A stretch of DNA of 63,482 nt, filler included, from Myxococcota bacterium (GTDB taxonomy: Bacteria; Myxococcota_C; UBA6777), in assembly GCA_023150835.1 (NCBI GenBank). It is 3 parts of 3 records of this genome, joined end to end, with 100 filler letters (N's around TTAATTAATTAA, not from the genome) between each part and the next. Parts side by side here need not be neighbours in the genome. Positions count along the whole stretch, not along the records: positions 28,579 to 56,810 come from JAKLKB010000091.1; 2 more parts are not named here. One strand, written 5' to 3'. The notes under the pieces were generated by a model that was given only the letters and a program-made list of their open reading frames with translations, was not told the origin of the DNA and did no database searches. Of this stretch, positions 5,765 through 56,910 are shown piece by piece. The position numbers and the translations under genes are program-made. The stretch's first letter is position 1. Each line of letters starts with the position of its first letter.

Positions 5765-5846
5765 GTAGGGGCAGCCCCCTGTGGCTGCCCAAGAATCGGG
5801 CGTCTACGTACTATCTTACGATCACACATCACTCGGATATCGTATT
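5765..5846 (+). repeat. REP family A with a conserved ~55-nt extension (ATCGGGCGTCT...CATCACTCGGATATCGTAT)
   Basis: The extension recurs at ~42968-43034 (+) and ~34576-34659 (-). Confidence 0.8.
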
Positions 5847-5902
5847 ACTCTGCTCTTCTGCCCCTCTCCCCAGTTTGTTGCTCTGCTCCATTTTGTTTTT
5901 TC

Positions 5903-10824: not shown

Positions 10825-10916
10825 CGGAAGCGTACAGGAATCGAACCTGCCCACGAGGGATCACCCCGCACGACGGTTTTGAAGACCGCGAGCGCCACCA
10901 GACGCCATGCACTTCC
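10825..10916 (-). tRNA. selC: tRNA-Sec (anticodon UCA)
   Basis: Minus strand GGAAGTGCATGGCGTCTGGTGGCGCTCGCGGTCTTCAAAACCGT...GCAGGTTCGATTCCTGTACGCTTCCG: 8-position acceptor stem, 6-bp D stem with UGGU loop, CUUCAAA anticodon loop, long variable arm, G discriminator; CCA not encoded. Confidence 0.95.
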
Positions 10917-24902: not shown

Positions 24903-25292
24903 TTACAAACGTAGTGCTGTCTCTTCTGTTTGCGTGAGATGAGCAAAAGAACACCGTTGGCCTCGATCAAACAAAGCATCTTCCTCTTTCAACAGCCAAG
25001 CATAAGAAAAGATCGCGTCAATACTTCCCCCCAAACCATTCTCGATCCGCCATAATGTCGAGCAAGAATAGCCTTTCGGCAACATCTCCACATCCGCCAA
25101 AAAGCGGCTTAACTTGGCGATCTCACCCAACGTCCATCCCTCCTTCTTCATCGGTTTTTTTCGAAAGACTTCAAGGTCGACGTCTGCTTTTTGCAAAGTG
25201 TCGAGGATCTCCAAACGAGGAAACAACATCCGCGCTCTCGCGACTGCAAGATGGTCACCGATCTCGGAAAGGTAGGCATTCAGTTTGTTCAT
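24903..25292 (-). CDS. atypical XRE/cHTH transcriptional regulator, paralog A
   Basis: IG..L..AR...GWTLGEIA...S..TL.RIENG..GS...I..YA..L...LF pattern with insertions; clear paralog of 27194-27538. Confidence 0.7.
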   Translation of the reverse strand: MNKLNAYLSEIGDHLAVARARMLFPRLEILDTLQKADVDLEVFRKKPMKKEGWTLGEIAKLSRFLADVEMLPKGYSCSTLWRIENGLGGSIDAIFSYAWLLKEEDALFDRGQRCSFAHLTQTEETALRL

Positions 25293-25451
25293 CTTTCGTT
25301 CCTCACTCTCAGCGTGTTCGAGAAAAAAAGCATCCGCAACCACGGTACTCGCCGAGAGAAGTGATCCAAAAGCAACACTTCGGGTGAACAAATTTACTTT
25401 TTTACGCCCCCTCGCTCGAAAGAATACGATTTATCCCCCATCATCCGATGT

Positions 25452-26573
25452 TTATCGAATTTTACGGATCTCAGATTCCGCGATATTGCAGTAGTGATCG
25501 ATCTTTTCACGGTACGTCTTTTTCTCGCTCATCGCAGAGATAGGCCGCAACAGCTTTGGACGACCAATGGCTCCTGCCAAACGCTCGATTTCTTGTTCTC
25601 CGCAACGCTCCAGTCCGGGAGAGTGATCTATGCAGATATTGTGTAACTCCTTCATACTGCAAGCAAAATGACATGGAGGTGGCTGAGATCCAAAGCGTCC
25701 CAAAAAACGACAACGTTCTCGACAAATGCTTCCACAAGCACGCGCAACGATCACTCGCCGTTTACAGATCTCTTTGTAATCCATCACAAGATTCGGCCAT
25801 ACAGGACGCAAGATGCTTTGGCAGATATCTTGGCTCATAAAACACGAAGAAGCCAACAACAACGACAACAAGCCCAAGATCCCAAGCCAACGCCTCCAAC
25901 GAAAACTTCGCTTTTCTCGCCCTTGTAACCACTCGATCAATTCTTTGATTTGTTTTTCTGGGAAAAAGATCAACAATAATTTATCTTCTATCGACCGAGA
26001 CTTTTTCGCAAATCGCAAAGTATCCAGCGACTGTACTTGCTTTGGCCAAAAAACCGCCTCAACGCGCTCTTTTTGTCTTTCCAAAGAAGGTGCCAGCGCG
26101 TCGTAGCCCGAAGCTGGCAGCAAAAAAACGGTGTCGCCAAGAAGCGGGTTGGAGCCGTCCATCTCGCTTACCGATGAACTCAAAAGAATCTCCAACTTTT
26201 CCGGTAGCATCGAAGGAACAGAAACACCTCCGTCTGAAAAAACCAGCCCAGAAGCCCATACATTCGAGCGCGACAGCCGAAAAGGACGCACACAATCCGC
26301 TGCAGCCAACAAACAAGACAACGTTGCGGAAGCTCCGCGCCATTCATGTGCCAACGTGGTATTCGAGGACGGATATTTTTTCCACCAGAAACGCAAAGCA
26401 TCGTTTTCTTCTGGGAAAAAAGCTCCAAAAGCCTGCCTCGCTTGTGGCAACGCGAAAGCTTCGGACGGAAATAACTCATACCCTTTCGGGACATCAGGGG
26501 TTTTCGTCACGCAGATTTGGGCATACCCAATCTTTTTGTTGGGGAGAGCCAAAGGAAAAAAAAGCGACGTCAT
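25452..26573 (-). CDS. Lon-like (S16) protease domain, TM helix and Cys-rich extracytoplasmic domain
   Basis: WRGASATLSCLLA / VWASGLVFSDGGV...PEKL / VFLLP align by eye to Lon DGPSAG / VAMTGEI..G.V...EK / IILP; TM WLGILGLLSLLLASS; about 8 Cys in the C-terminus. Confidence 0.65.
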   Translation of the reverse strand: MTSLFFPLALPNKKIGYAQICVTKTPDVPKGYELFPSEAFALPQARQAFGAFFPEENDALRFWWKKYPSSNTTLAHEWRGASATLSCLLAAADCVRPFRLSRSNVWASGLVFSDGGVSVPSMLPEKLEILLSSSVSEMDGSNPLLGDTVFLLPASGYDALAPSLERQKERVEAVFWPKQVQSLDTLRFAKKSRSIEDKLLLIFFPEKQIKELIEWLQGREKRSFRWRRWLGILGLLSLLLASSCFMSQDICQSILRPVWPNLVMDYKEICKRRVIVARACGSICRERCRFLGRFGSQPPPCHFACSMKELHNICIDHSPGLERCGEQEIERLAGAIGRPKLLRPISAMSEKKTYREKIDHYCNIAESEIRKIR

Positions 26574-26597: not shown

Positions 26598-27104
26598 TTA
26601 GCAGTCTTCATCTTTGCTAAAGACCATCACACGAAAAGGAGATTGAAGAGGATCGAAATGAAGTTGTTCGACAAAAAGGATCTCTTGGCCTTCCATCTCT
26701 CGACCGAGAGGTAAGGTACAGATCGGATCATCCACCTCCTCGCCAAGATAAAAAGCCAACCACCATCCGTTCGGGCTTGGTTCCGTCGCTTTCCATGTTA
26801 AATCCAAATAGCCTCTGCCGTCCGATGCTCTCTGCAAATCCAAACGGAACTCAAATTGGCCAAGATGCCAAGCAGAAAAATCTACCTTTTTTTCCAAGCG
26901 CTCTCCTCCTGAAGCAGAAGATAATCGAACCTGTCCTTGAAGACACCAAGGAGGCTGAAATTCAAAAGGATTGGCTTCTGGTGTTGCAACGAGCAGTGGC
27001 ATCTCGCCGTGTTGAATGGCTCGGACGGCTTGTGGAGGAAGAATCCCTCGCGCCTGTAAATGCTTTGACCACCGCTGGAGAGGAGCAAAAAAATCTGACT
27101 TCAT
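26598..27104 (-). CDS. hypothetical protein (beta-rich C-terminal domain)
   Basis: 168-aa ORF with AAGGA upstream, co-oriented within the cassette; no recognised family. Confidence 0.7.
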   Translation of the reverse strand: MKSDFFAPLQRWSKHLQARGILPPQAVRAIQHGEMPLLVATPEANPFEFQPPWCLQGQVRLSSASGGERLEKKVDFSAWHLGQFEFRLDLQRASDGRGYLDLTWKATEPSPNGWWLAFYLGEEVDDPICTLPLGREMEGQEILFVEQLHFDPLQSPFRVMVFSKDEDC

Positions 27105-27193: not shown

Positions 27194-27538
27194 TCATTTT
27201 AACGAAATATCTGGATATGAAAATAACTCGTTCTCTGTATTTAAAATCCAAGCATACGTATAAATAGATTCCATACTTCCTCCTGCACCTCTTTCGATTC
27301 TACGAAATGTTGCATAAGAATAACATTCTGGCAACATTTTAATATCCTCTAAGAAACCATTGAGTGCAACGATCTCCGAGAGACTCCATCCGACATTCTC
27401 ACTTCGCTTGAACGTTGCGGTGTCCAACAGATGCTTTTTCAACGCGCTTGTCACTTCCGCACGTGGATCGCGCATATTTCTCCGAGCAACAGCAAAATAC
27501 TTCCCTATATGAAGCAAATATTTGTCCAATTGATCCAT
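27194..27538 (-). CDS. atypical XRE/cHTH transcriptional regulator, paralog B
   Basis: About 40-45% identical by eye to 24903-25292; AT-rich. Confidence 0.7.
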   Translation of the reverse strand: MDQLDKYLLHIGKYFAVARRNMRDPRAEVTSALKKHLLDTATFKRSENVGWSLSEIVALNGFLEDIKMLPECYSYATFRRIERGAGGSMESIYTYAWILNTENELFSYPDISLK

Positions 27539-28478: not shown

Positions 28479-28578
28479 NNNNNNNNNNNNNNNNNNNNNN
28501 NNNNNNNNNNNNNNNNNNNNNNTTAATTAATTAANNNNNNNNNNNNNNNNNNNNNNNNNNNNNNNNNNNNNNNNNNNN
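28479..28578. other. artificial contig linker (N44-TTAATTAATTAA-N44)
   Basis: Six-frame stop linker flanked by Ns. Confidence 0.99.
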
Positions 28579-28875
28579 GCTCCTCCCCCTGCTGCGGCTT
28601 TTACACCTCCTCCTCCCCCTGCTGCGGCCTTTACACCCCCCGCACCAGACTTCGCGCTTACTCCCGATCGAAACTATCTTGCCAAAGCCCTCGAAGGCTC
28701 GCGCAAACGCTTCCGCCACCCTGCCGCTGCCCCTTCCTCGGCAGTCGAAAGCGCTCAAACCGAGTACATCCGCCAACTTTCACAAGACGTCATCACCCGC
28801 ATCGCTTGGGAAGTGGTCCCCGAACTCGCCGAGATCATTATCCGCGAAGCCCTTTCCAAACAACCCCGCTCCTAA
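28579..28875 (+). CDS. romR: 3' fragment of a RomR-like response regulator (not in the ORF track)
   Basis: Frame from 28579: APPPAAAFTPP...YIRQLSQDVITRIAWEVVPELAEIIIREALSKQPRS*, matching the RomR C-terminal IEKIAWEVVPQLAETIIRE motif as recalled, preceded by a Pro-rich linker. Confidence 0.8.
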   Translation, partial: APPPAAAFTPPPPPAAAFTPPAPDFALTPDRNYLAKALEGSRKRFRHPAAAPSSAVESAQTEYIRQLSQDVITRIAWEVVPELAEIIIREALSKQPRS

Positions 28876-28985
28876 TCCCCCCATGCAAGTGTTCCTCACA
28901 GATACACCACACAAACAGCTTGCGACTTTCCACCCCCTCCCTTCCCCTTTGCGTAACATCTCTCGGAAAAAAGAAGGCTGATCGC

Positions 28986-29468
28986 ATGGAATGGCTAATT
29001 CGTTTACGACTGAGTGGTATCGTGGTGTTATTGGGCCTTTTCGTCGGAGGCATCGGGGCCTTGGTCGGAGCAAAACTCCCGTTTTGGTTGATCGGCTTGT
29101 TGATCTTTGGTGCGTCCATGTTGTTTTTGCCCGTCCCACGGCTTCCACACGCTTATTCACAAGAGGACTTGGAGAAAGAACTCCATGATATGCAGCGCGC
29201 CCTCTCCGAGATCCGCCTGCTCGAAGAAAAACTCACTCCGATCCAACAAGAGATCCAAGACGCTGGCCTCCTCAAACAAGAACAGATCAAAGCCCTCGAT
29301 CTGCGCTTTCAATCTCTGCGACAGATGACACCCGAAACCACCACCACCCTCCGAGAGCTGTTGTTTGGCGACCAACGGCGCACGCTTTCGGTGATCGTCG
29401 TGATGCTTTCTCTGATGGCCCTTGCCGCCGCTGGCTTTGTCCCAACCTTCGGACGTTGGCTCTTTTAA
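28986..29468 (+). CDS. small membrane protein with central coiled coil
   Basis: Two N-terminal TMs, a heptad region and a C-terminal TM. Confidence 0.7.
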   Translation: MEWLIRLRLSGIVVLLGLFVGGIGALVGAKLPFWLIGLLIFGASMLFLPVPRLPHAYSQEDLEKELHDMQRALSEIRLLEEKLTPIQQEIQDAGLLKQEQIKALDLRFQSLRQMTPETTTTLRELLFGDQRRTLSVIVVMLSLMALAAAGFVPTFGRWLF

Positions 29469-29496: not shown

Positions 29497-29707
29497 TAGG
29501 ACTTACTCTCCCCCCCTCGCCTCTTCGACAGAAGGGAGAGGGGGCCGGGGGCCGAGGACGACGCGACCTCTGCTCCTGTCAGATTCCCCCGCCTTTTGGG
29601 CTTTACAGAGAAGGTGTCCGAGCGTTCGCAACCTGTCGCTGCCCAAGCACAGGGCATCTGTGTACTCTCCTTCGATCACAGATCACTCGGGTATCGTCTA
29701 AGTCCTC
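29497..29707. mobile_element. degenerate MITE-like element with TAGGACTTAC / TAAGTCCT ends and an internal CTCTCCC...GGGAGAGGGG palindrome
   Basis: Ends resemble the TIRs of 20645-20760; no TSD visible. Confidence 0.45.
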
Positions 29708-29734
29708 TCACACCTCAGATATCTGGAGCCTGTC

Positions 29735-32101
29735 GTGCTAGAACATCCATCCAAGACACCCGCCCCGTGGACCCACGCTGAACTCGATCAACTCATCACC
29801 AAAGCGTTCGAGGAAGACACCACAGGCGGCGATATCACCTCCGAAGCGATCTTCCGCCCTCACCAACGCGTCATCGCACGTGCGATCGCCAAAGCCCCTC
29901 TCGTGGTCTGTGGCCTCCCCGTCGCTGAGCGCGTCTTCTCTTGGCTCGATCCAGCCACCCGCTGGACCGCTCATTGCGAAGAAGGCCAACTCGTCACACC
30001 TCAAACGGTCCTGTTTACCGTCGAAGGAGCCGTACGCTCGGTGCTTTCCGCAGAACGCATCGCCCTCAACTTGCTCCAACATCTGAGCGGTATCGCGACC
30101 CACGCACGACAATTCGCCGAGGCTGTCGCAGACACACACACCCGCGTCGTCGATACACGCAAGACCTTGCCCGGGCTGCGGGTATTCCAACGCTACGCTG
30201 TCCGTGTCGGTGGATGCTTCAACCACCGCTATAACCTCGGAAGCGGCGTCTTGATCAAAGAAAACCACATCCGCGCCGCTGGCTCGATCGCACGCGCCGT
30301 CCAAGCCGCCCGACAATACGCCCCTCACCTCCTCAAGATCGAAGTCGAAGTGACGAATCTCGATGAACTCTTACAAGCCCTTTCTGTCCAAGCCGATGTG
30401 ATCTTGCTCGACAATATGTCCAATGAGATGATGCGCGAAGCCGTCCAATTGACCGACAAACGCGCCCTCTTAGAAGCCTCGGGTAACGTCTCCCTCGAAC
30501 GTGTCCGTTCTATCGCAGAAACGGGCGTCGACTTTGTCTCTGTGGGCGCACTCACACACTCCGTCCGCGCTGCCGATATCAGCCTGCTTGTTCACCTCGA
30601 AGACCTTTCCGCGAATCCCTCTCACACCGAATCCCCTGCTTTTCTTTCCACACAACCGAGTGCATCGACCTCCTCCCCTCCCCTCCAACCCGCCCCTCGC
30701 ACTTCGTTCTCCTCGCTCTCCCCCAAACAGGCCGATGCCTCCGCCATGACCTCGGATGCCTCCTCCGCCTCATCCAGCCCTCCTGCTCTGCCCTACCTGA
30801 ACCTTGACCAAGCCCTCGCCAAACAAGAAGCCCCCGTCGGTCCCTATCTCCCCGCTGTGCAACCCTTCTACATCGAAGTCGCCTCCGATCTCGCAAAGCG
30901 CCTTGGCATCCCTCCGTCTCCATCCCAAAAATCCGAACTATCCGACGCCATCGAAGCCGCAACTTCTCCATCCCAAAAATCCGAACTATCCGACGCCATC
31001 GAAGCCGCAACTTCTCCATCCCAAAAATCCGAACTATCCGACGCCATCGAAGCCGCAACCAAGAAACAGACCGATCCTCCCGCACAAAGCCTGCCTCCCT
31101 CGCGCTTTCAAGAGACCCTACTTCCAAAACTCCGAGAGTCTTTGTTTCTCTCACGAGGCATCCGTATCCCGAGTGGTCTGATCGAAGAAAATCCGCAGAT
31201 CCGCTCGGGGCACTTTGCTTGCTGGATCGAAGGAACCCACGCAGGCAGCGGCGAGATCCCCGTAGATCGGCTGTTGGTGGGTGCCACCCCTCAAGAACTT
31301 CGGATCTTTCAGATCGAAGGCCGTAAAACCCTCCATCCCCTCAGCATGCGTGATGCCTCATTTGTCGCAGAAACCCACAAAGCGCGGCTCAAAGAAGCCT
31401 ACATCCCGATGTGGAACGCCGAAGAACTCCTCGTCCTCCATCTGACCGCGATCTTGGAACGTCACGCCGAACGCTTCCTTGGCACACAAGCCCTGCGCGC
31501 CGCACTCGATATCGTCGCTCATCACGAGCCTACACTCGTCGCACAAGCCCTCGATCGCTACCCGCTCAGCACGCTCCGCCGCATCCTCTTGTTGCTCGCC
31601 GAAGACCGCCTCTCCTTGTGCAACCTCCACCGCATCCTTGAGTCGCTCCTTGAGATCCCCCTCGATATCCAAGATATCGAACCCCTCGCAGACGCCACGC
31701 GCCGATCCATGCGGCGATATCTGTGCCAGCCCTTCGCTGTTCAAGAAACCCAACTGCTCGCCTATAACCTCGCCCCCCACCTCGAACTTCTGCTCCAACA
31801 CCTTTTCCTTGGGCGTCCCCTACCCGAAGGGATCTCTGCCCCCACAAGCATGGCCCCGATCCAAGCACTCTACAGCACCTTACAACGGCGCTTTCGGGCC
31901 CTACCTTCGAGCGCAACCCTCCCGCTGCTGCTGGTTCGCGATCACGCCCTTCGGCGCCCCCTCCAACGTGTCCTTCAACGCGCCTTTCCTTACTGCGGCG
32001 TCTTGTCTTGGCAAGAGATCGATCCCGATTATGACGTGATGATCATCGAAACCTTGGATCACGACGTCCTCGAATTTTCATCCCACAAAGATACCCCATA
32101 A
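29735..32101 (+). CDS. nadC: NadC (quinolinate phosphoribosyltransferase) fused to an FHIPEP/FlhA-SctV-like cytoplasmic domain
   Basis: aa 1-~288 carry EDTTGGDITS, AERIALN, DTRKTLPGLR, NHRYNL, IKENH, EVEV, ILLDN and EASGNV. aa ~375-780 carry PFYIEV...LRESLFLSRGIRIP...HAERFLGTQ...LLAEDRLSLCNLHRILESL...LRRPLQRVL...VLSWQEI. GGAG RBS before the GTG. Confidence 0.9.
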   Translation: MLEHPSKTPAPWTHAELDQLITKAFEEDTTGGDITSEAIFRPHQRVIARAIAKAPLVVCGLPVAERVFSWLDPATRWTAHCEEGQLVTPQTVLFTVEGAVRSVLSAERIALNLLQHLSGIATHARQFAEAVADTHTRVVDTRKTLPGLRVFQRYAVRVGGCFNHRYNLGSGVLIKENHIRAAGSIARAVQAARQYAPHLLKIEVEVTNLDELLQALSVQADVILLDNMSNEMMREAVQLTDKRALLEASGNVSLERVRSIAETGVDFVSVGALTHSVRAADISLLVHLEDLSANPSHTESPAFLSTQPSASTSSPPLQPAPRTSFSSLSPKQADASAMTSDASSASSSPPALPYLNLDQALAKQEAPVGPYLPAVQPFYIEVASDLAKRLGIPPSPSQKSELSDAIEAATSPSQKSELSDAIEAATSPSQKSELSDAIEAATKKQTDPPAQSLPPSRFQETLLPKLRESLFLSRGIRIPSGLIEENPQIRSGHFACWIEGTHAGSGEIPVDRLLVGATPQELRIFQIEGRKTLHPLSMRDASFVAETHKARLKEAYIPMWNAEELLVLHLTAILERHAERFLGTQALRAALDIVAHHEPTLVAQALDRYPLSTLRRILLLLAEDRLSLCNLHRILESLLEIPLDIQDIEPLADATRRSMRRYLCQPFAVQETQLLAYNLAPHLELLLQHLFLGRPLPEGISAPTSMAPIQALYSTLQRRFRALPSSATLPLLLVRDHALRRPLQRVLQRAFPYCGVLSWQEIDPDYDVMIIETLDHDVLEFSSHKDTP
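30917..31060 (+). repeat. 3 x 48-bp in-frame repeat (SPSQKSELSDAIEAAT)
   Basis: Read directly. Confidence 0.95.
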
Positions 32102-32147: not shown

Positions 32148-32906
32148 ATGTCACAACTCAGCGAAACTCCGCTCGACACCGAAGACTTCACCCCCGAAGA
32201 TCTCCAAGTGGCCGACCCCGTCGTCTTCCCGCTCGACGATCCCCCCGAAGATACTCAGCGCTCCCTCCGCAAGATCTGGGCGCGCCACCAACTCACACCT
32301 TACCTCCGCCGTTGGGAAGAAGCCTACGTCCCCAACTTCCCCAACGCGATCTGGGCCTTCGATTGGCGCGCTTGTGACGTGGGCTGTGGCTTCGGAATGT
32401 TTGTCCTGCGCGAAAGCGCCCACCATCCGTCCCGCGCCTACCTCGGCATCGAAAAAGGTACACGCCGAGGCATCGGCCTCGCCAAACGCGCCCAAGCCTC
32501 CGGGCAAAACAACCTCTTCGCGATCCACGGAAACGCCATCCCCTTACTCGCCGAGATCCCCGACCAAAGCTTCGACTTGATCACTCTCTTTTATCCGAAT
32601 CCTTGGTGGCCCACCAAGCACCGGAAAAAACGTTGGGCTTTCCATCCGCTCTTGCCCAAACTGGTGTCTCTGCTCAAGCCCGACGCCACCCTGCTCCTCG
32701 CCGCCAACGAACGCTTCTACCTCTGCGAGTGGTTGTACGCCTTGCGCCATCACCCAGACGTCGCTCCTTTCCTTGTCGAAGACTACGTCGGCCCGATCCA
32801 AGAAACCGTCGGAAGAACACACTTTGAGACCAAATACCTCGAACACGGCATCGCTTGCGGAGAGATCCGCTTCAAGAAAAAGTACGATAAAAGGATAGAC
32901 GAATGA
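32148..32906 (+). CDS. trmB: tRNA (guanine-N7)-methyltransferase TrmB family
   Basis: DVGCGFG, YLGIE, FYPNPWWPTKHRKKR and THFETKY motifs. Confidence 0.8.
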   Translation: MSQLSETPLDTEDFTPEDLQVADPVVFPLDDPPEDTQRSLRKIWARHQLTPYLRRWEEAYVPNFPNAIWAFDWRACDVGCGFGMFVLRESAHHPSRAYLGIEKGTRRGIGLAKRAQASGQNNLFAIHGNAIPLLAEIPDQSFDLITLFYPNPWWPTKHRKKRWAFHPLLPKLVSLLKPDATLLLAANERFYLCEWLYALRHHPDVAPFLVEDYVGPIQETVGRTHFETKYLEHGIACGEIRFKKKYDKRIDE

Positions 32907-34417
32907 ACCGACCTCATGCGCGTATTCACCCCTTTGATTGCCAAACCGCTGCCATCCATTCGACGCGAGGGATCTTTTGCAATCGTACGCTGAACCTACG
33001 AACCATCCGAGCGATCGGCTACGATATGGACTACACCCTCGTCCATTACAACGTCGAACGATGGGAAGAACAAGCCTACGAGGCCACACGCCTTCGGCTC
33101 GAACGCGAAGGATGGCCTGTCAAAGGACTCACCTTCGATCCACAACGCATCGTGCGCGGTTTGGTGCTGGATCTCGAACTCGGAAACATCATCAAACCCA
33201 ACCGCTTCGGATACATCACACGCGCTGCTCATGGCACGCAGATGATGGACTTCAACGAGATGCGCGAAGTCTACGCTCGCACCCTGATCGATCTCTCGGA
33301 TCGACGGTATATCTTCCTCAATACCCTGTTCTCGATATCGGAAGCATGGCTGTTTGCGCAACTCGTCGATCTCATGGATCACGGCATCCTCACCCAAGTC
33401 CCGACCTACGAAGCTCTCTACAAAACAGTCCGCCACGCCATCGACACCACCCACATGGAGGGCGAACTCAAAGCCGAGATCATGCAGCACCCCGAGCTTT
33501 ATGTCGAACCCGACCCCGATATCCCGCTTGCGCTGCTCGATCAAAAAAGCGCAGGCAAACGACTTTTGCTGATTACAAACTCCGAATGGTTCTACACACG
33601 CTTTATGATGCGTTACGCCTTTGATCGCTTTTTGCCCAAAGGGATGACGTGGCGCGATCTGTTTGAACTGGTCGTCGTTTCCGCACGCAAGCCGGACTTC
33701 TTCTCCCTGCGCGCCCCCGTCTTTTCAGTCGTGGACGAAGAAAATGGTCTCTTGCAGCCCTACATCTCCAAACTACAAAGCGGTGGCGTCTATCTTGGCG
33801 GAAATGCCGGCCTCATCGAATCTTCTCTCGCTCTTTCTGGCGAAGATATCCTGTATGTCGGGGACCACATCTACGGCGATGTGACGGTTTCCAAAAGCAC
33901 GCTGCGTTGGCGCACGGCCTTGATCTTGCGCGAACTCGAAGCAGAACTCGAATGTGTCGAATCCGCCCGCCTTCAGCAAGAACAAATCAACGTCATGATG
34001 GAAACCAAGGAAGCGATGGAGGCCGAACTGTCAGCACTCAAACTCGATATCTTGCGCAAAGAACACCACTACGGACCCACCACCGAAACCCCCGAAGCCC
34101 AACTCCGTCAACGCGCCAAACAACTCCGCGAAGAACTGGTCGCCCTCGATAACCAGATATCCCCTCTTGTTGCCGAAGACTCCGAGCGCGTCAACCCTTA
34201 CTGGGGCTATCTGATGCGCGCTGGCAACGACAAAAGCCATCTCACCCGCCAAGTCGAGCGCCATGCCGATATCTATATGTCCCGTGTCTCCAACTTCCTC
34301 TTCTATACGCCATTTATGTACTTTCGCTCTCCTCGCGGCTCCATGCCACATGATATGCCCACCCTTGAGATCCCGCCCTCTCCCCACCTCACTCCCCGCC
34401 CTCCGACCCTCTCCTAG
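32903..34417 (+). CDS. HAD-IG family 5'-nucleotidase (cN-II-like)
   Basis: IFCNRTLNL, GYDMDYTL, LITNS, ARKP and YVGDHIYGDV motifs; ATGA overlap with trmB. Confidence 0.92.
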   Translation: MNRPHARIHPFDCQTAAIHSTRGIFCNRTLNLRTIRAIGYDMDYTLVHYNVERWEEQAYEATRLRLEREGWPVKGLTFDPQRIVRGLVLDLELGNIIKPNRFGYITRAAHGTQMMDFNEMREVYARTLIDLSDRRYIFLNTLFSISEAWLFAQLVDLMDHGILTQVPTYEALYKTVRHAIDTTHMEGELKAEIMQHPELYVEPDPDIPLALLDQKSAGKRLLLITNSEWFYTRFMMRYAFDRFLPKGMTWRDLFELVVVSARKPDFFSLRAPVFSVVDEENGLLQPYISKLQSGGVYLGGNAGLIESSLALSGEDILYVGDHIYGDVTVSKSTLRWRTALILRELEAELECVESARLQQEQINVMMETKEAMEAELSALKLDILRKEHHYGPTTETPEAQLRQRAKQLREELVALDNQISPLVAEDSERVNPYWGYLMRAGNDKSHLTRQVERHADIYMSRVSNFLFYTPFMYFRSPRGSMPHDMPTLEIPPSPHLTPRPPTLS

Positions 34418-56810: not shown

Positions 56811-56910
56811 NNNNNNNNNNNNNNNNNNNNNNNNNNNNNNNNNNNNNNNNNNNNTTAATTAATTAANNNNNNNNNNNNNNNNNNNNNNNNNNNNNNNNNN
56901 NNNNNNNNNN
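56811..56910. other. artificial contig linker (N44-TTAATTAATTAA-N44)
   Basis: Six-frame stop linker flanked by Ns. Confidence 0.99.

What the first reader, a model, noticed from the sequence alone, without database searches (positions are those of the whole stretch)
29735..32101. NadC fused to the cytoplasmic domain of the FlhA/SctV type III export gate
Seen: one uninterrupted 788-codon ORF with an intact NadC, a Ser/Pro-rich linker and a full FHIPEP-like C-terminal domain with no transmembrane part. No other flagellar or T3SS gene lies in the window. Known: the FlhA/SctV cytoplasmic domain forms a nonameric ring that docks export chaperones, and NadC is normally a stand-alone oligomeric NAD-biosynthesis enzyme. 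Inference: an export-gate domain repurposed as an oligomerisation or localisation scaffold for NAD synthesis, or a link between pyridine-nucleotide supply and a secretion or polarity machine (a romR-like gene lies two genes upstream). I know of no described example.
Basis: partly seen in the sequence, partly recalled or inferred. Interest (0 to 1): 0.82.

Follow-up and report, generated by a model that had tools for sequence, protein, structure and literature searches.

The report
NadC fused to soluble secretion-gate domain
An uncultured sludge bacterium makes its NAD-synthesis enzyme NadC as one protein with a membrane-free copy of the docking domain of the type III secretion gate; the fusion is real and kept by selection, but it is young and its purpose is not known.

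Summary
Window 29735-32101(+) is one 788-codon ORF: a complete NadC (TIGR00078, 324.6 bits against a cut-off of 198.4), an 86-residue Ser/Ala/Pro-rich linker, and a complete FlhA_C/SctV_C domain with no membrane part (Pfam FHIPEP positions 357-655 of 657; AF2 pLDDT 90.7; Foldseek to CdsV, E 5e-23).

It is not an assembly artefact. The same fusion stands in two other assemblies (L001, L023). Contigs from three DNA studies and one RNA library bridge the junction without indels. dN/dS against L001 is 0.09 for both domains and about 0.5 for the linker.

The fusion is young. In three sister genomes nadC stands alone. The C-domain's nearest kin are stand-alone, membrane-less 385-448-aa proteins in a starred 8-row clade. 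Flanking synteny shows such a gene was inserted between nadC and a trmB-like gene.

These proteins belong to a much larger membrane-less FlhA_C group fused to TPR, HEAT, ankyrin, TIR or AAA+ domains. My literature searches found no description of it. This scan had noted the group before on other DNA.

No T3SS gene and no romR-like gene lies in the window. Whether NAD synthesis is functionally coupled to the ring domain is untested.

The parts
29735..32101 (+). Whole fusion gene: 788 codons plus stop, GTG start
   Evidence: Orthologues with the same start and architecture in L001 (P0002, 804 aa) and L023.
29725..29728 (+). GGAG, likely ribosome-binding site six bases before the GTG
   Evidence: Read directly from the sequence.
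29795..30586 (+). NadC (quinolinate phosphoribosyltransferase) module, aa 21-284
   Evidence: TIGR00078 324.6 bits (cut-off 198.4). Pfam QRPTase_N and QRPTase_C. 264.9 bits to the solved T. thermophilus enzyme 1x1o over its whole length.
30599..30856 (+). Ser/Ala/Pro-rich linker, aa 289-374. Its last ~25 residues are conserved and probably match the FlhA linker segment that precedes D1.
   Evidence: Composition. 75% identity to L001 with dN/dS 0.51, and the stretch before the first strand of D1 is nearly identical in the two sequences. Model confidence is low here (blocks 53-84).
30857..32098 (+). Membrane-less FlhA_C/SctV_C-like domain (D1-D4), aa 375-788, including the repeat insert
   Evidence: Pfam FHIPEP 357-655/657. 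PDB sequence match to CdsV 6wa6, E 4.7e-26. AF2 pLDDT 90.7, pTM 0.84. Foldseek to CdsV, FlhA, YscV, InvA, MxiA, EscV and SsaV, E 5e-23 to 2.5e-18. dN/dS 0.087.
30917..31059 (+). Perfect 48-bp x 3 tandem repeat (three 16-residue helices) inserted between the first strand and first long helix of D1. Copy number varies between strains.
   Evidence: TRF 100% matches. Helices H37-50, H53-65 and H69-85 of the model. Four diverged copies in P0002 and three in L023. Absent from the stand-alone paralogues in L009 and L010.
28806..29468 (+). Upstream small membrane-protein gene (syntenic flank). The real start is probably the internal ATG used in L023.
   Evidence: Homologous to the gene upstream of stand-alone nadC in G005 (E 2e-24). 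The same gene precedes the fusion in L023.
32148..32906 (+). Downstream TrmB-like methyltransferase gene (syntenic flank, probably the same operon)
   Evidence: Pfam Methyltransf_4. 55% identical to the gene that directly follows stand-alone nadC in G004.
32903..34417 (+). 5'-nucleotidase family gene, overlapping the previous gene by 4 bases (context)
   Evidence: Pfam 5_nucleotid, E 8e-146. A 504-aa ORF occupies the corresponding position in L001; its family was not checked.

Best explanation
This is a genuine, expressed two-module protein made by a recent gene fusion.

The N-terminal module is the cell's ordinary quinolinate phosphoribosyltransferase (NadC), which turns quinolinate into nicotinate mononucleotide for de novo NAD synthesis.

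The C-terminal module is a membrane-less copy of the cytoplasmic docking domain of the injectisome-type export gate SctV. It was not cut out of an export gate at the time of fusion. It descends from a stand-alone soluble paralogue gene, carrying its own disordered N-terminal tail, that sister genomes still have.

That gene landed between nadC and the trmB-like gene, and the nadC stop was lost. The paralogue's disordered tail thereby became the linker.

I infer that the C-module still does what the free paralogues do: it acts as a cytosolic self-associating docking platform of the FlhA_C type. NadC rides on it through a floppy tether. The coupling to NAD synthesis is most likely incidental or only mildly useful (co-expression, clustering of NadC), not a new pathway link.

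Shown here: the architecture, the integrity of both modules, purifying selection on both, the youth of the fusion, and its origin from the soluble clade.

Inferred: ring or docking activity of the C-module, NadC activity, and the absence of a deeper functional coupling.
For: Architecture and fold.

Not an artefact:
- The same fusion is present in L001 (87% identity; 804 aa) and L023.
- Single contigs cross the NadC end and linker with 0 differences and no indels: X7 at 29780-30946, X12 at 30352-30946, and the RNA-library run X8 at 30325-30946.
- 20 listed rows from 8 studies hold the stretch.

Both modules are under selection: dN/dS against L001 is 0.093 for NadC and 0.087 for FlhA_C, at dS 0.26-0.28. 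The linker gives 0.51 and the repeat region 0.49.

Housekeeping role:
- In G001 the fusion is the only strong QRPTase_C match (205.9 bits). The next match is 42.7 bits, in a 469-aa frame.
- NadA is present in G001.

Youth of the fusion:
- nadC stands alone in G003, G004 and G005, in open frames of 320-335 aa at 54-55% identity.
- In G004 the trmB-like gene follows nadC directly.
- The upstream gene is shared with G005.

Origin of the C-module:
- It sits in an all-membrane-less clade of 9 rows (99*, FastTree, 160 rows), or 8 rows (99*, IQ-TREE quick, 55 rows).
- Members of that clade include P0027, whose domain is identical to the G005 paralogue.
- That paralogue has a long low-complexity N-terminal tail and no nadC beside it.

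The domain is well kept: of 40 columns that are at least 75% conserved in 33 full-length FlhA/SctV rows, the window has the same residue in 27, a conservative change in 10 and a different residue in 3.

NadC fuses readily: 12 of the 13 hits are NadC joined to unrelated domains (biotin ligase-like, flavin reductase, acetyltransferase, GGDEF, receiver, NadA, NadB and others).
Against: - No oligomeric state, partner or enzyme activity was measured.
- Equal and strong constraint on both halves, and retention in at least three strain-level assemblies, also fit an adaptive coupling.
- The stem branch leading to the fused lineage is long (1.29 changes per column). The C-module may therefore have changed function around the time of fusion.
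- The repeat insert in D1 is unique to the fused lineage. This hints at lineage-specific adaptation, not an unchanged paralogue function.
- Only five genomes of this GTDB phylum are held, so the dating of the fusion rests on few relatives.
- The RNA-library contigs do not prove transcription; the tool's own caveat says so.
Confidence: 0.5

Rival explanations
1. Adaptive scaffold. The FlhA_C-type module assembles into a ring, as the solved FlhA_C/SctV_C nonamers do, and so clusters many NadC modules. The ring would stabilise the NadC oligomer, or place NAD-precursor synthesis at a fixed cell site. That NadC active sites need at least a dimer is established knowledge recalled here, not tested.
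For: - Both modules are under equally strong purifying selection.
- The universal FlhA_C residues are retained, and the four-subdomain fold is modelled with confidence.
- Other members of the soluble group carry enzymes that are known, from the literature and as I recall it, to work by induced proximity: TIR in P0055 and P0058, and an AAA+ domain in P0046.
Against: - The fusion is confined to one genus-level lineage. Sister genomes manage with a free NadC.
- No measurement of assembly is available.
- A 9-fold ring does not match the 2- or 6-fold NadC oligomers of the literature (recalled).
Confidence: 0.2
2. Secretion-linked. The soluble SctV_C-like module docks on, or competes with, the organism's own type III export gate or its chaperones. 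This would tie quinolinate/NaMN metabolism to secretion.
For: - The sister genome G001 encodes a complete SctV (TIGR01399 800.7 bits, above cut-off), plus FlhB/SctU and FliP/SctR. No flagellin was found.
- The C-module groups with this phylum's own SctV and not with flagellar FlhA (support 92, not starred).
- The best solved matches are injectisome gates: CdsV and YscV.
[quoted passage not shown] 2007. I saw this only in the reference list of PMC5723341.
Against: - No T3SS gene is in the 63-kb window.
- In G001 the fusion (C92), SctV (C336) and SctU/SctR (C72) lie on different contigs.
- The free paralogues in G003 and G005 are not next to T3SS genes either.
- G002 and G004 have SctV but no soluble paralogue was found with this query.
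- The domain is only 24-27% identical to the phylum's SctV_C.
Confidence: 0.12
3. Conflict or immunity-type module. Like the TIR-, protease- and ATPase-linked soluble FlhA_C proteins, this one would belong to a stress or defence system centred on NAD, with NadC as the output.
For: - TIR-FlhA_C fusions exist (P0055, P0058), as does an AAA+/ClpB-like fusion (P0046).
- The TIR part of P0058 matches PADLOC TIR models.
- Earlier notes of this scan report soluble FlhA_C pairs next to TIR, CHAT and NLR-like genes. These are unchecked leads.
Against: - P0001 has no PADLOC hit.
- It lies among housekeeping genes in conserved synteny.
- It is the only nadC of G001.
- Its clade is separate from the 51-row clade that holds the TPR, tandem and TIR (P0055) forms.
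Confidence: 0.06
4. Artefact: two adjacent genes wrongly joined by an assembly or sequencing error (a lost stop or a frameshift).
For: - The window is from a metagenome-type source; no genome is held for it.
- Unitigs break inside the 48-bp repeat, so the repeat copy number is not confirmed.
Against: - Three independent assemblies carry the same frame.
- Contigs of four runs cover the junction without indels.
- dN/dS is 0.09 on both sides.
- The free NadC genes of relatives end where the linker begins.
Confidence: 0.02

Closest known systems
Cytoplasmic domain of the type III export gate SctV/FlhA (FHIPEP family): CdsV 6wa6/6wa9, YscV 7alw/7qij, FlhA 6ch1/3a5i/3mix, InvA 2x49, MxiA 4a5p, EscV 7osl, SsaV 7feb
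   Same: Same four-subdomain fold: Foldseek E 5e-23, TM (target-normalised) 0.80-0.83 to CdsV. Sequence match E 4.7e-26. 27 of 40 near-universal residues are kept. The domain groups on the injectisome (SctV) side of the tree.
   Different: No N-terminal eight-helix membrane domain. Not in a T3SS or flagellar locus. Only 20-24% identity to the solved domains listed. A three-helix tandem-repeat insert sits in D1. NadC is attached instead of the membrane channel.
Stand-alone membrane-less FlhA_C/SctV_C paralogues, e.g. P0027 (named only 'hypothetical protein' in a Deltaproteobacteria MAG record), P0024-P0026, P0029, and the G003 and G005 genes in L010 and L009
   Same: Nearest relatives of the C-module: 31-34% identity, in one starred clade. 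They lack a membrane part, carry a disordered N-terminal extension, and lie outside T3SS loci.
   Different: They have no NadC and no repeat insert. They are free proteins of 385-448 aa.
Wider group of soluble FlhA_C fusions (TPR, HEAT, ankyrin+FliG_N, TIR, AAA+/ClpB-like, DUF4388, tandem FlhA_C)
   Same: The same domain without the membrane part, joined to another module. 106 of the 150 best representatives have 0-1 hydrophobic segment.
   Different: Their partners are repeats, signalling or cell-death-type enzymes, not a biosynthetic enzyme. Most fall in a separate 51-row clade (97*). Some short rows are probably fragments of full-length genes.
NadC, carboxylating nicotinate-nucleotide diphosphorylase (TIGR00078; solved e.g. 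1x1o, 1qpr, 1qap)
   Same: Full-length match above the equivalog cut-off. 264.9 bits to 1x1o across aa 17-286, with the conserved blocks shared with the solved enzymes visible in the alignment.
   Different: About 500 extra C-terminal residues. Other NadC fusions exist (12 of 13 hits), but none of those carries FHIPEP.

Membership tests
NadC / QAPRTase (TIGR00078, PF02749+PF01729) | Both QRPTase domains complete and scoring above the curated equivalog cut-off | tested here: met
   324.6 bits vs 198.4, model positions 2-267 of 269. Pfam 1-82/82 and 1-168/169.
NadC / QAPRTase (TIGR00078, PF02749+PF01729) | Conserved substrate-binding blocks shared with solved enzymes | tested here: met
   The alignment to 1x1o and 5hul shows the conserved blocks identical. 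Which residues are catalytic is recalled, not computed.
NadC / QAPRTase (TIGR00078, PF02749+PF01729) | Enzyme activity, and its role as the cell's nadC | tested here: inconclusive
   It is the only strong QRPTase_C match in sister genome G001, and NadA is present there. G001 is an incomplete MAG, no genome is held for the window, and activity was not assayed.
FlhA/SctV export gate (FHIPEP, TIGR01398/TIGR01399) | N-terminal polytopic membrane domain (first ~330 profile positions) | tested here: not met
   Pfam covers only 357-655 of 657. No run of hydrophobic segments.
FlhA/SctV export gate (FHIPEP, TIGR01398/TIGR01399) | Score above the equivalog cut-off | tested here: not met
   115.5 vs 772.1 and 111.1 vs 692.25.
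FlhA/SctV export gate (FHIPEP, TIGR01398/TIGR01399) | Cytoplasmic domain with the D1-D4 fold | tested here: met
FlhA/SctV export gate (FHIPEP, TIGR01398/TIGR01399) | Encoded with other export-apparatus genes | tested here: not met
   None among 40 ORFs of the window. In G001 it is on a different contig from SctV and from SctU/SctR.
FlhA/SctV export gate (FHIPEP, TIGR01398/TIGR01399) | Nonameric ring and docking of chaperone-substrate complexes | not testable with these tools
   Needs biochemistry or structure determination.
Membrane-less FlhA_C/SctV_C paralogues (not described in the papers searched) | FlhA_C fold, no membrane part, and phylogenetic placement among other membrane-less proteins, not beside a full-length gate | tested here: met
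   9-row and 8-row clades, both 99*, made only of proteins with 0-1 hydrophobic segment.
Known anti-phage defence systems (PADLOC 2.0) | Match to any defence-system protein model | tested here: not met
   0 families for P0001, P0024 and P0027 at E <= 0.01.

The most novel reading that the evidence does not exclude
The membrane-less SctV_C ring may be a general proximity hub that bacteria attach to enzymes working only as oligomers. In this family the hub would be tied to NAD turnover: TIR NADases in some members and the NAD-precursor enzyme NadC here. In this organism the hub would either gather NadC into a ring-bound assembly, or bring it to the injectisome gate. At the gate NadC would remove quinolinate, a molecule reported to inhibit Shigella pathogenicity. 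That would be a direct physical link between pyridine-nucleotide metabolism and type III secretion.
Probability: 0.12. Interest if true: 0.8.

Novelty: new variant of a known kind. Interest (0 to 1): 0.55.

Why it matters
FlhA_C/SctV_C is known in the literature as the part of the type III export gate that sorts substrates. A healthy, selected copy of it that is free of the membrane and welded to a core metabolic enzyme shows the domain can work outside the secretion machine.

The locus also gives a dated, stepwise example: gate, then soluble paralogue, then enzyme fusion. The protein is soluble, carries an easy enzymatic read-out (NadC), and could be used to ask what the soluble FlhA_C family binds and whether it forms rings.

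If the coupling is incidental, the case is mainly another member of that unstudied family.

Tried and rejected
- Complex prediction with two copies of the C-module (aa 449-788, alignment A1) gave 'no answer' (score 0.00, mark 0.42, controls not run). It says nothing for or against self-association.
- No whole genome is held for the window, so T3SS content and nadC copy number were read from the sister genome G001.
- Rfam found no family for the 5' leader of the gene. The only match was a chance-level miRNA hit, E 0.23. The leader's fold is no better than shuffles, z -0.04.
- I first took the depth spike at 29602-29702 for a possible NAD riboswitch. It is a dispersed ~70-nt repeat with a second copy at about 5779-5855. 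It was not found at up to 7 substitutions in any locus fetched by then, L001 and the nadC loci L020-L022 included.
- The ESM Atlas search returned only generic 'FHIPEP family' clusters of 306-326 aa and added nothing.
- Literature searches found nothing on soluble FlhA_C proteins or on this fusion: FHIPEP+TIR, FHIPEP+Myxococcus, FlhA+'conflict systems', nadC+FlhA+fusion, and SctV+cytoplasmic domain+paralog+soluble. Subscription journals and supplements were not searchable.
- Repeat copy number could not be confirmed, because unitigs break inside the 48-bp repeat.
- Whether the fragment P0015 (357 aa, 77% identity, on a 1675-nt contig) is fused to NadC cannot be told.
- The phylum-wide search reached only 5 genomes. 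Most of the 40 'relatives' appear distant: small genomes with only full-length FlhA-like matches.
Full report
**1. Is it there?**

Window 29735-32101(+) is one open frame of 788 codons. It starts at GTG with GGAG six bases upstream.
- Pfam finds QRPTase_N (aa 33-118), QRPTase_C (aa 120-284, E 7e-61) and FHIPEP (aa 463-765, E 4e-40). The FHIPEP match covers only profile positions 357-655 of 657.
- NCBIfam's nadC equivalog is passed (324.6 bits vs 198.4). The FlhA and SctV equivalogs match only their C-terminal thirds, far below cut-off.
- A hydropathy scan finds none of the 6-10 hydrophobic segments that full-length FlhA proteins show.
- The 86 residues between the modules are 60% S/P/T/A.
- A perfect 48-bp x 3 tandem repeat lies at 30917-31059.

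**2. Is it an artefact?**

No.
- The 5.8-billion-protein search found one other protein with all three Pfam families: P0002, 804 aa, 87% identical. It lies on contig L001, whose record title names a Myxococcota MAG.
- A JGI metagenome contig (L023) carries a third copy with the same flanking genes.
- The stretch is held by 20 listed rows from 8 studies, nearly all activated sludge.
- Laid contigs of three DNA runs and one RNA-library run cover all 30 bins with no insertion or deletion. Single contigs cross the end of NadC and the linker with 0 differences: X7 29780-30946, X12 30352-30946, and X8 (RNA library) 30325-30946.
- The unitigs break inside the 48-bp repeat, so the copy number is not confirmed. 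RNA-library contigs alone do not prove transcription.
- Against L001, dN/dS is 0.093 for NadC and 0.087 for the FlhA_C part, at dS of about 0.26-0.28. It is 0.51 for the linker and 0.49 for the repeat region. Both modules are therefore kept by selection.

**3. The two modules**

NadC:
- It aligns over its whole length with solved enzymes (1x1o, 264.9 bits). The conserved blocks are shared.
- In the sister genome G001 the fusion is the only strong QRPTase_C match (205.9 bits; next 42.7 bits). NadA is present there. So this protein is most likely the cell's working NadC.

C-module:
- I modelled it with an alignment of 62 relatives (A1). The model has pLDDT 90.7 and pTM 0.84.
- It matches every solved FlhA_C/SctV_C. 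Chlamydial CdsV is best (Foldseek E 5e-23, TM 0.80-0.83), followed by FlhA, YscV, InvA, MxiA, EscV and SsaV. The sequence search gives the same ranking.
- Of 40 alignment columns that are at least 75% conserved in 33 full-length gates, the window keeps the same residue in 27, has a conservative change in 10 and differs in 3.
- The three 16-residue repeats are modelled as three helices, inserted between the first strand and the first long helix of D1.
- The insert is absent from the free paralogues.
- It has four diverged copies in P0002 and three in L023. It is a fast-changing, strain-variable element.

**4. Where the C-module comes from**

An exhaustive HMMER search of 1.84 billion representatives with aa 360-788 gave 2061 hits at E <= 1e-3. 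Of the 150 best, 106 have 0-1 hydrophobic segment, 21 have 2-4, and only 23 have 5 or more. Some short hits are surely fragments of full-length genes.

I scanned 20 of the 150 with Pfam. All carry the C-terminal FHIPEP part.
- Four add TPR, often with two FlhA_C domains in tandem.
- One adds HEAT.
- One adds ankyrin plus FliG_N.
- One adds a ClpB-like AAA+ domain with a winged helix.
- Two add TIR.
- One adds DUF4388.
- Ten add nothing that Pfam recognises. One of those, P0035, is a fragment that still includes part of the membrane domain.

Trees:
- In a FastTree of 160 domain rows, the window's domain sits with P0002 and P0015 (100*). These lie inside a 9-row clade (99*) made only of membrane-less proteins of 385-448 aa.
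- An IQ-TREE quick run on 55 rows gives the same 8-row clade (99*). The G003 paralogue is next to it (88). The group joins this phylum's own SctV proteins at 92, not starred. Flagellar FlhA lies across a 99* branch.
- The root is not inferred, and the join to SctV is only suggestive.

**5. How old is the fusion?**

- G001's GTDB phylum holds only five genomes here.
- A full-length SctV-type frame (735-743 aa) is seen in G001, G002, G004 and G005. Membrane-less paralogues are seen in G001 (the fusion), G003 and G005.
- nadC stands alone in G003, G004 and G005, in open frames of 320-335 aa at 54-55% identity. It was not found in G002 with this query.
- In G004 nadC is followed, with a 4-base overlap, by a gene 55% identical to the window's trmB-like gene.
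- In G005 the gene upstream of nadC is homologous to the window's upstream gene (E 2e-24).
- The free paralogues of G003 and G005 are not beside nadC. The G005 protein has a long low-complexity N-terminal tail.
- The simplest history: a free soluble paralogue gene was inserted between nadC and the trmB-like gene, the nadC stop was lost, and the paralogue's tail became the linker.

**6. Context**

- Pfam on 40 other ORFs of the window finds no flagellar or T3SS family and no receiver domain. The 'romR-like' gene is not supported.
- G001 does encode a complete SctV (TIGR01399 800.7 bits), FlhB/SctU and FliP/SctR. These lie on other contigs. No flagellin was found in that incomplete genome.
- Myxococcales are known to carry early-branching non-flagellar T3SSs (Abby and Rocha 2012, PMC3459982; passages read).
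- P0001 matches no PADLOC defence model.

**7. What it most likely is**

I read it as a young fusion of the housekeeping NadC with a pre-existing soluble SctV_C paralogue. Both halves are functional. The C-module most probably still acts as a self-associating docking platform. NadC is tethered to it by a floppy, fast-evolving linker.

NadC is a frequent fusion partner: 12 of the 13 hits are NadC joined to unrelated domains. This fusion is also confined to one genus-level lineage. So I rate an incidental or mildly useful coupling (0.5) above the alternatives:
- a dedicated scaffold for NAD synthesis (0.2);
- a link to the injectisome (0.12);
- a conflict-type system (0.06);
- an artefact (0.02).

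Points against my ranking:
- Constraint on both halves is equal and strong.
- The stem branch of the fused lineage is long (1.29).
- The repeat insert is lineage-specific.

All three would also fit a new, adapted function.

**8. Novelty**

My searches of the held library found no paper on this fusion or on soluble FlhA_C proteins. Subscription journals and supplements were not covered.

This scan had already noted the membrane-less FlhA_C family on other DNA, next to TIR, CHAT and NLR-like genes and in other fusions. I reached the family independently. The NadC fusion and its stepwise origin are the new elements here.

One lead is speculative. Quinolinate, the NadC substrate, is called an inhibitor of Shigella pathogenicity in the title of Prunier et al. 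2007. I saw that title only in a reference list.

Noticed in passing
window 29632-29708 and about 5779-5855 (both + strand, intergenic): A dispersed ~70-nt repeat with two copies in the window (81% mean column identity over the aligned 111 bases). The copy at 29.6 kb lies 27-100 nt upstream of the fusion's start codon. In four sludge runs this spot has 10-35 times the depth of its flanks, with many different flanking sequences. There is no Rfam match and no unusual fold stability. It was not found in any locus fetched by then, L001 included.
   Followed up: partly
window 10826-10916 (-): A selenocysteine tRNA gene (Rfam tRNA-Sec, 70.6 bits) lies between two very large ORFs (1492 and 1600 aa).
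   Followed up: no
window 24903-25391 (-) and 27194-27538 (-): Two small paralogous ORFs with similar sequences and no Pfam hit bracket two further unknown ORFs (25452-26573, 26598-27104). No receiver domain was found.
   Followed up: partly
window 28479-28578 and 56811-56910: Two places with the same masked pattern: 44 N, 12 bases, 44 N. The content is unknown.
   Followed up: no
window 32903-34417 (+): A PF05761-family 5'-nucleotidase (E 8e-146) is translationally coupled to the trmB-like gene just downstream of the NadC fusion. A nucleotidase next to the NaMN-forming enzyme could be metabolically related. This was not examined.
   Followed up: no
proteins P0030, P0031, P0036, P0032 (hits): Large TPR or HEAT proteins carry two FlhA_C-like domains in tandem. 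The first and second domains fall in different clades of the tree, which suggests an old hetero-pair fused into one chain.
   Followed up: partly
protein P0058 vs P0059 (hits): The FlhA_C part of a TIR-FlhA_C protein is very close to that of a full-length gate protein (100*, short branches). Soluble derivatives seem to have arisen more than once.
   Followed up: no
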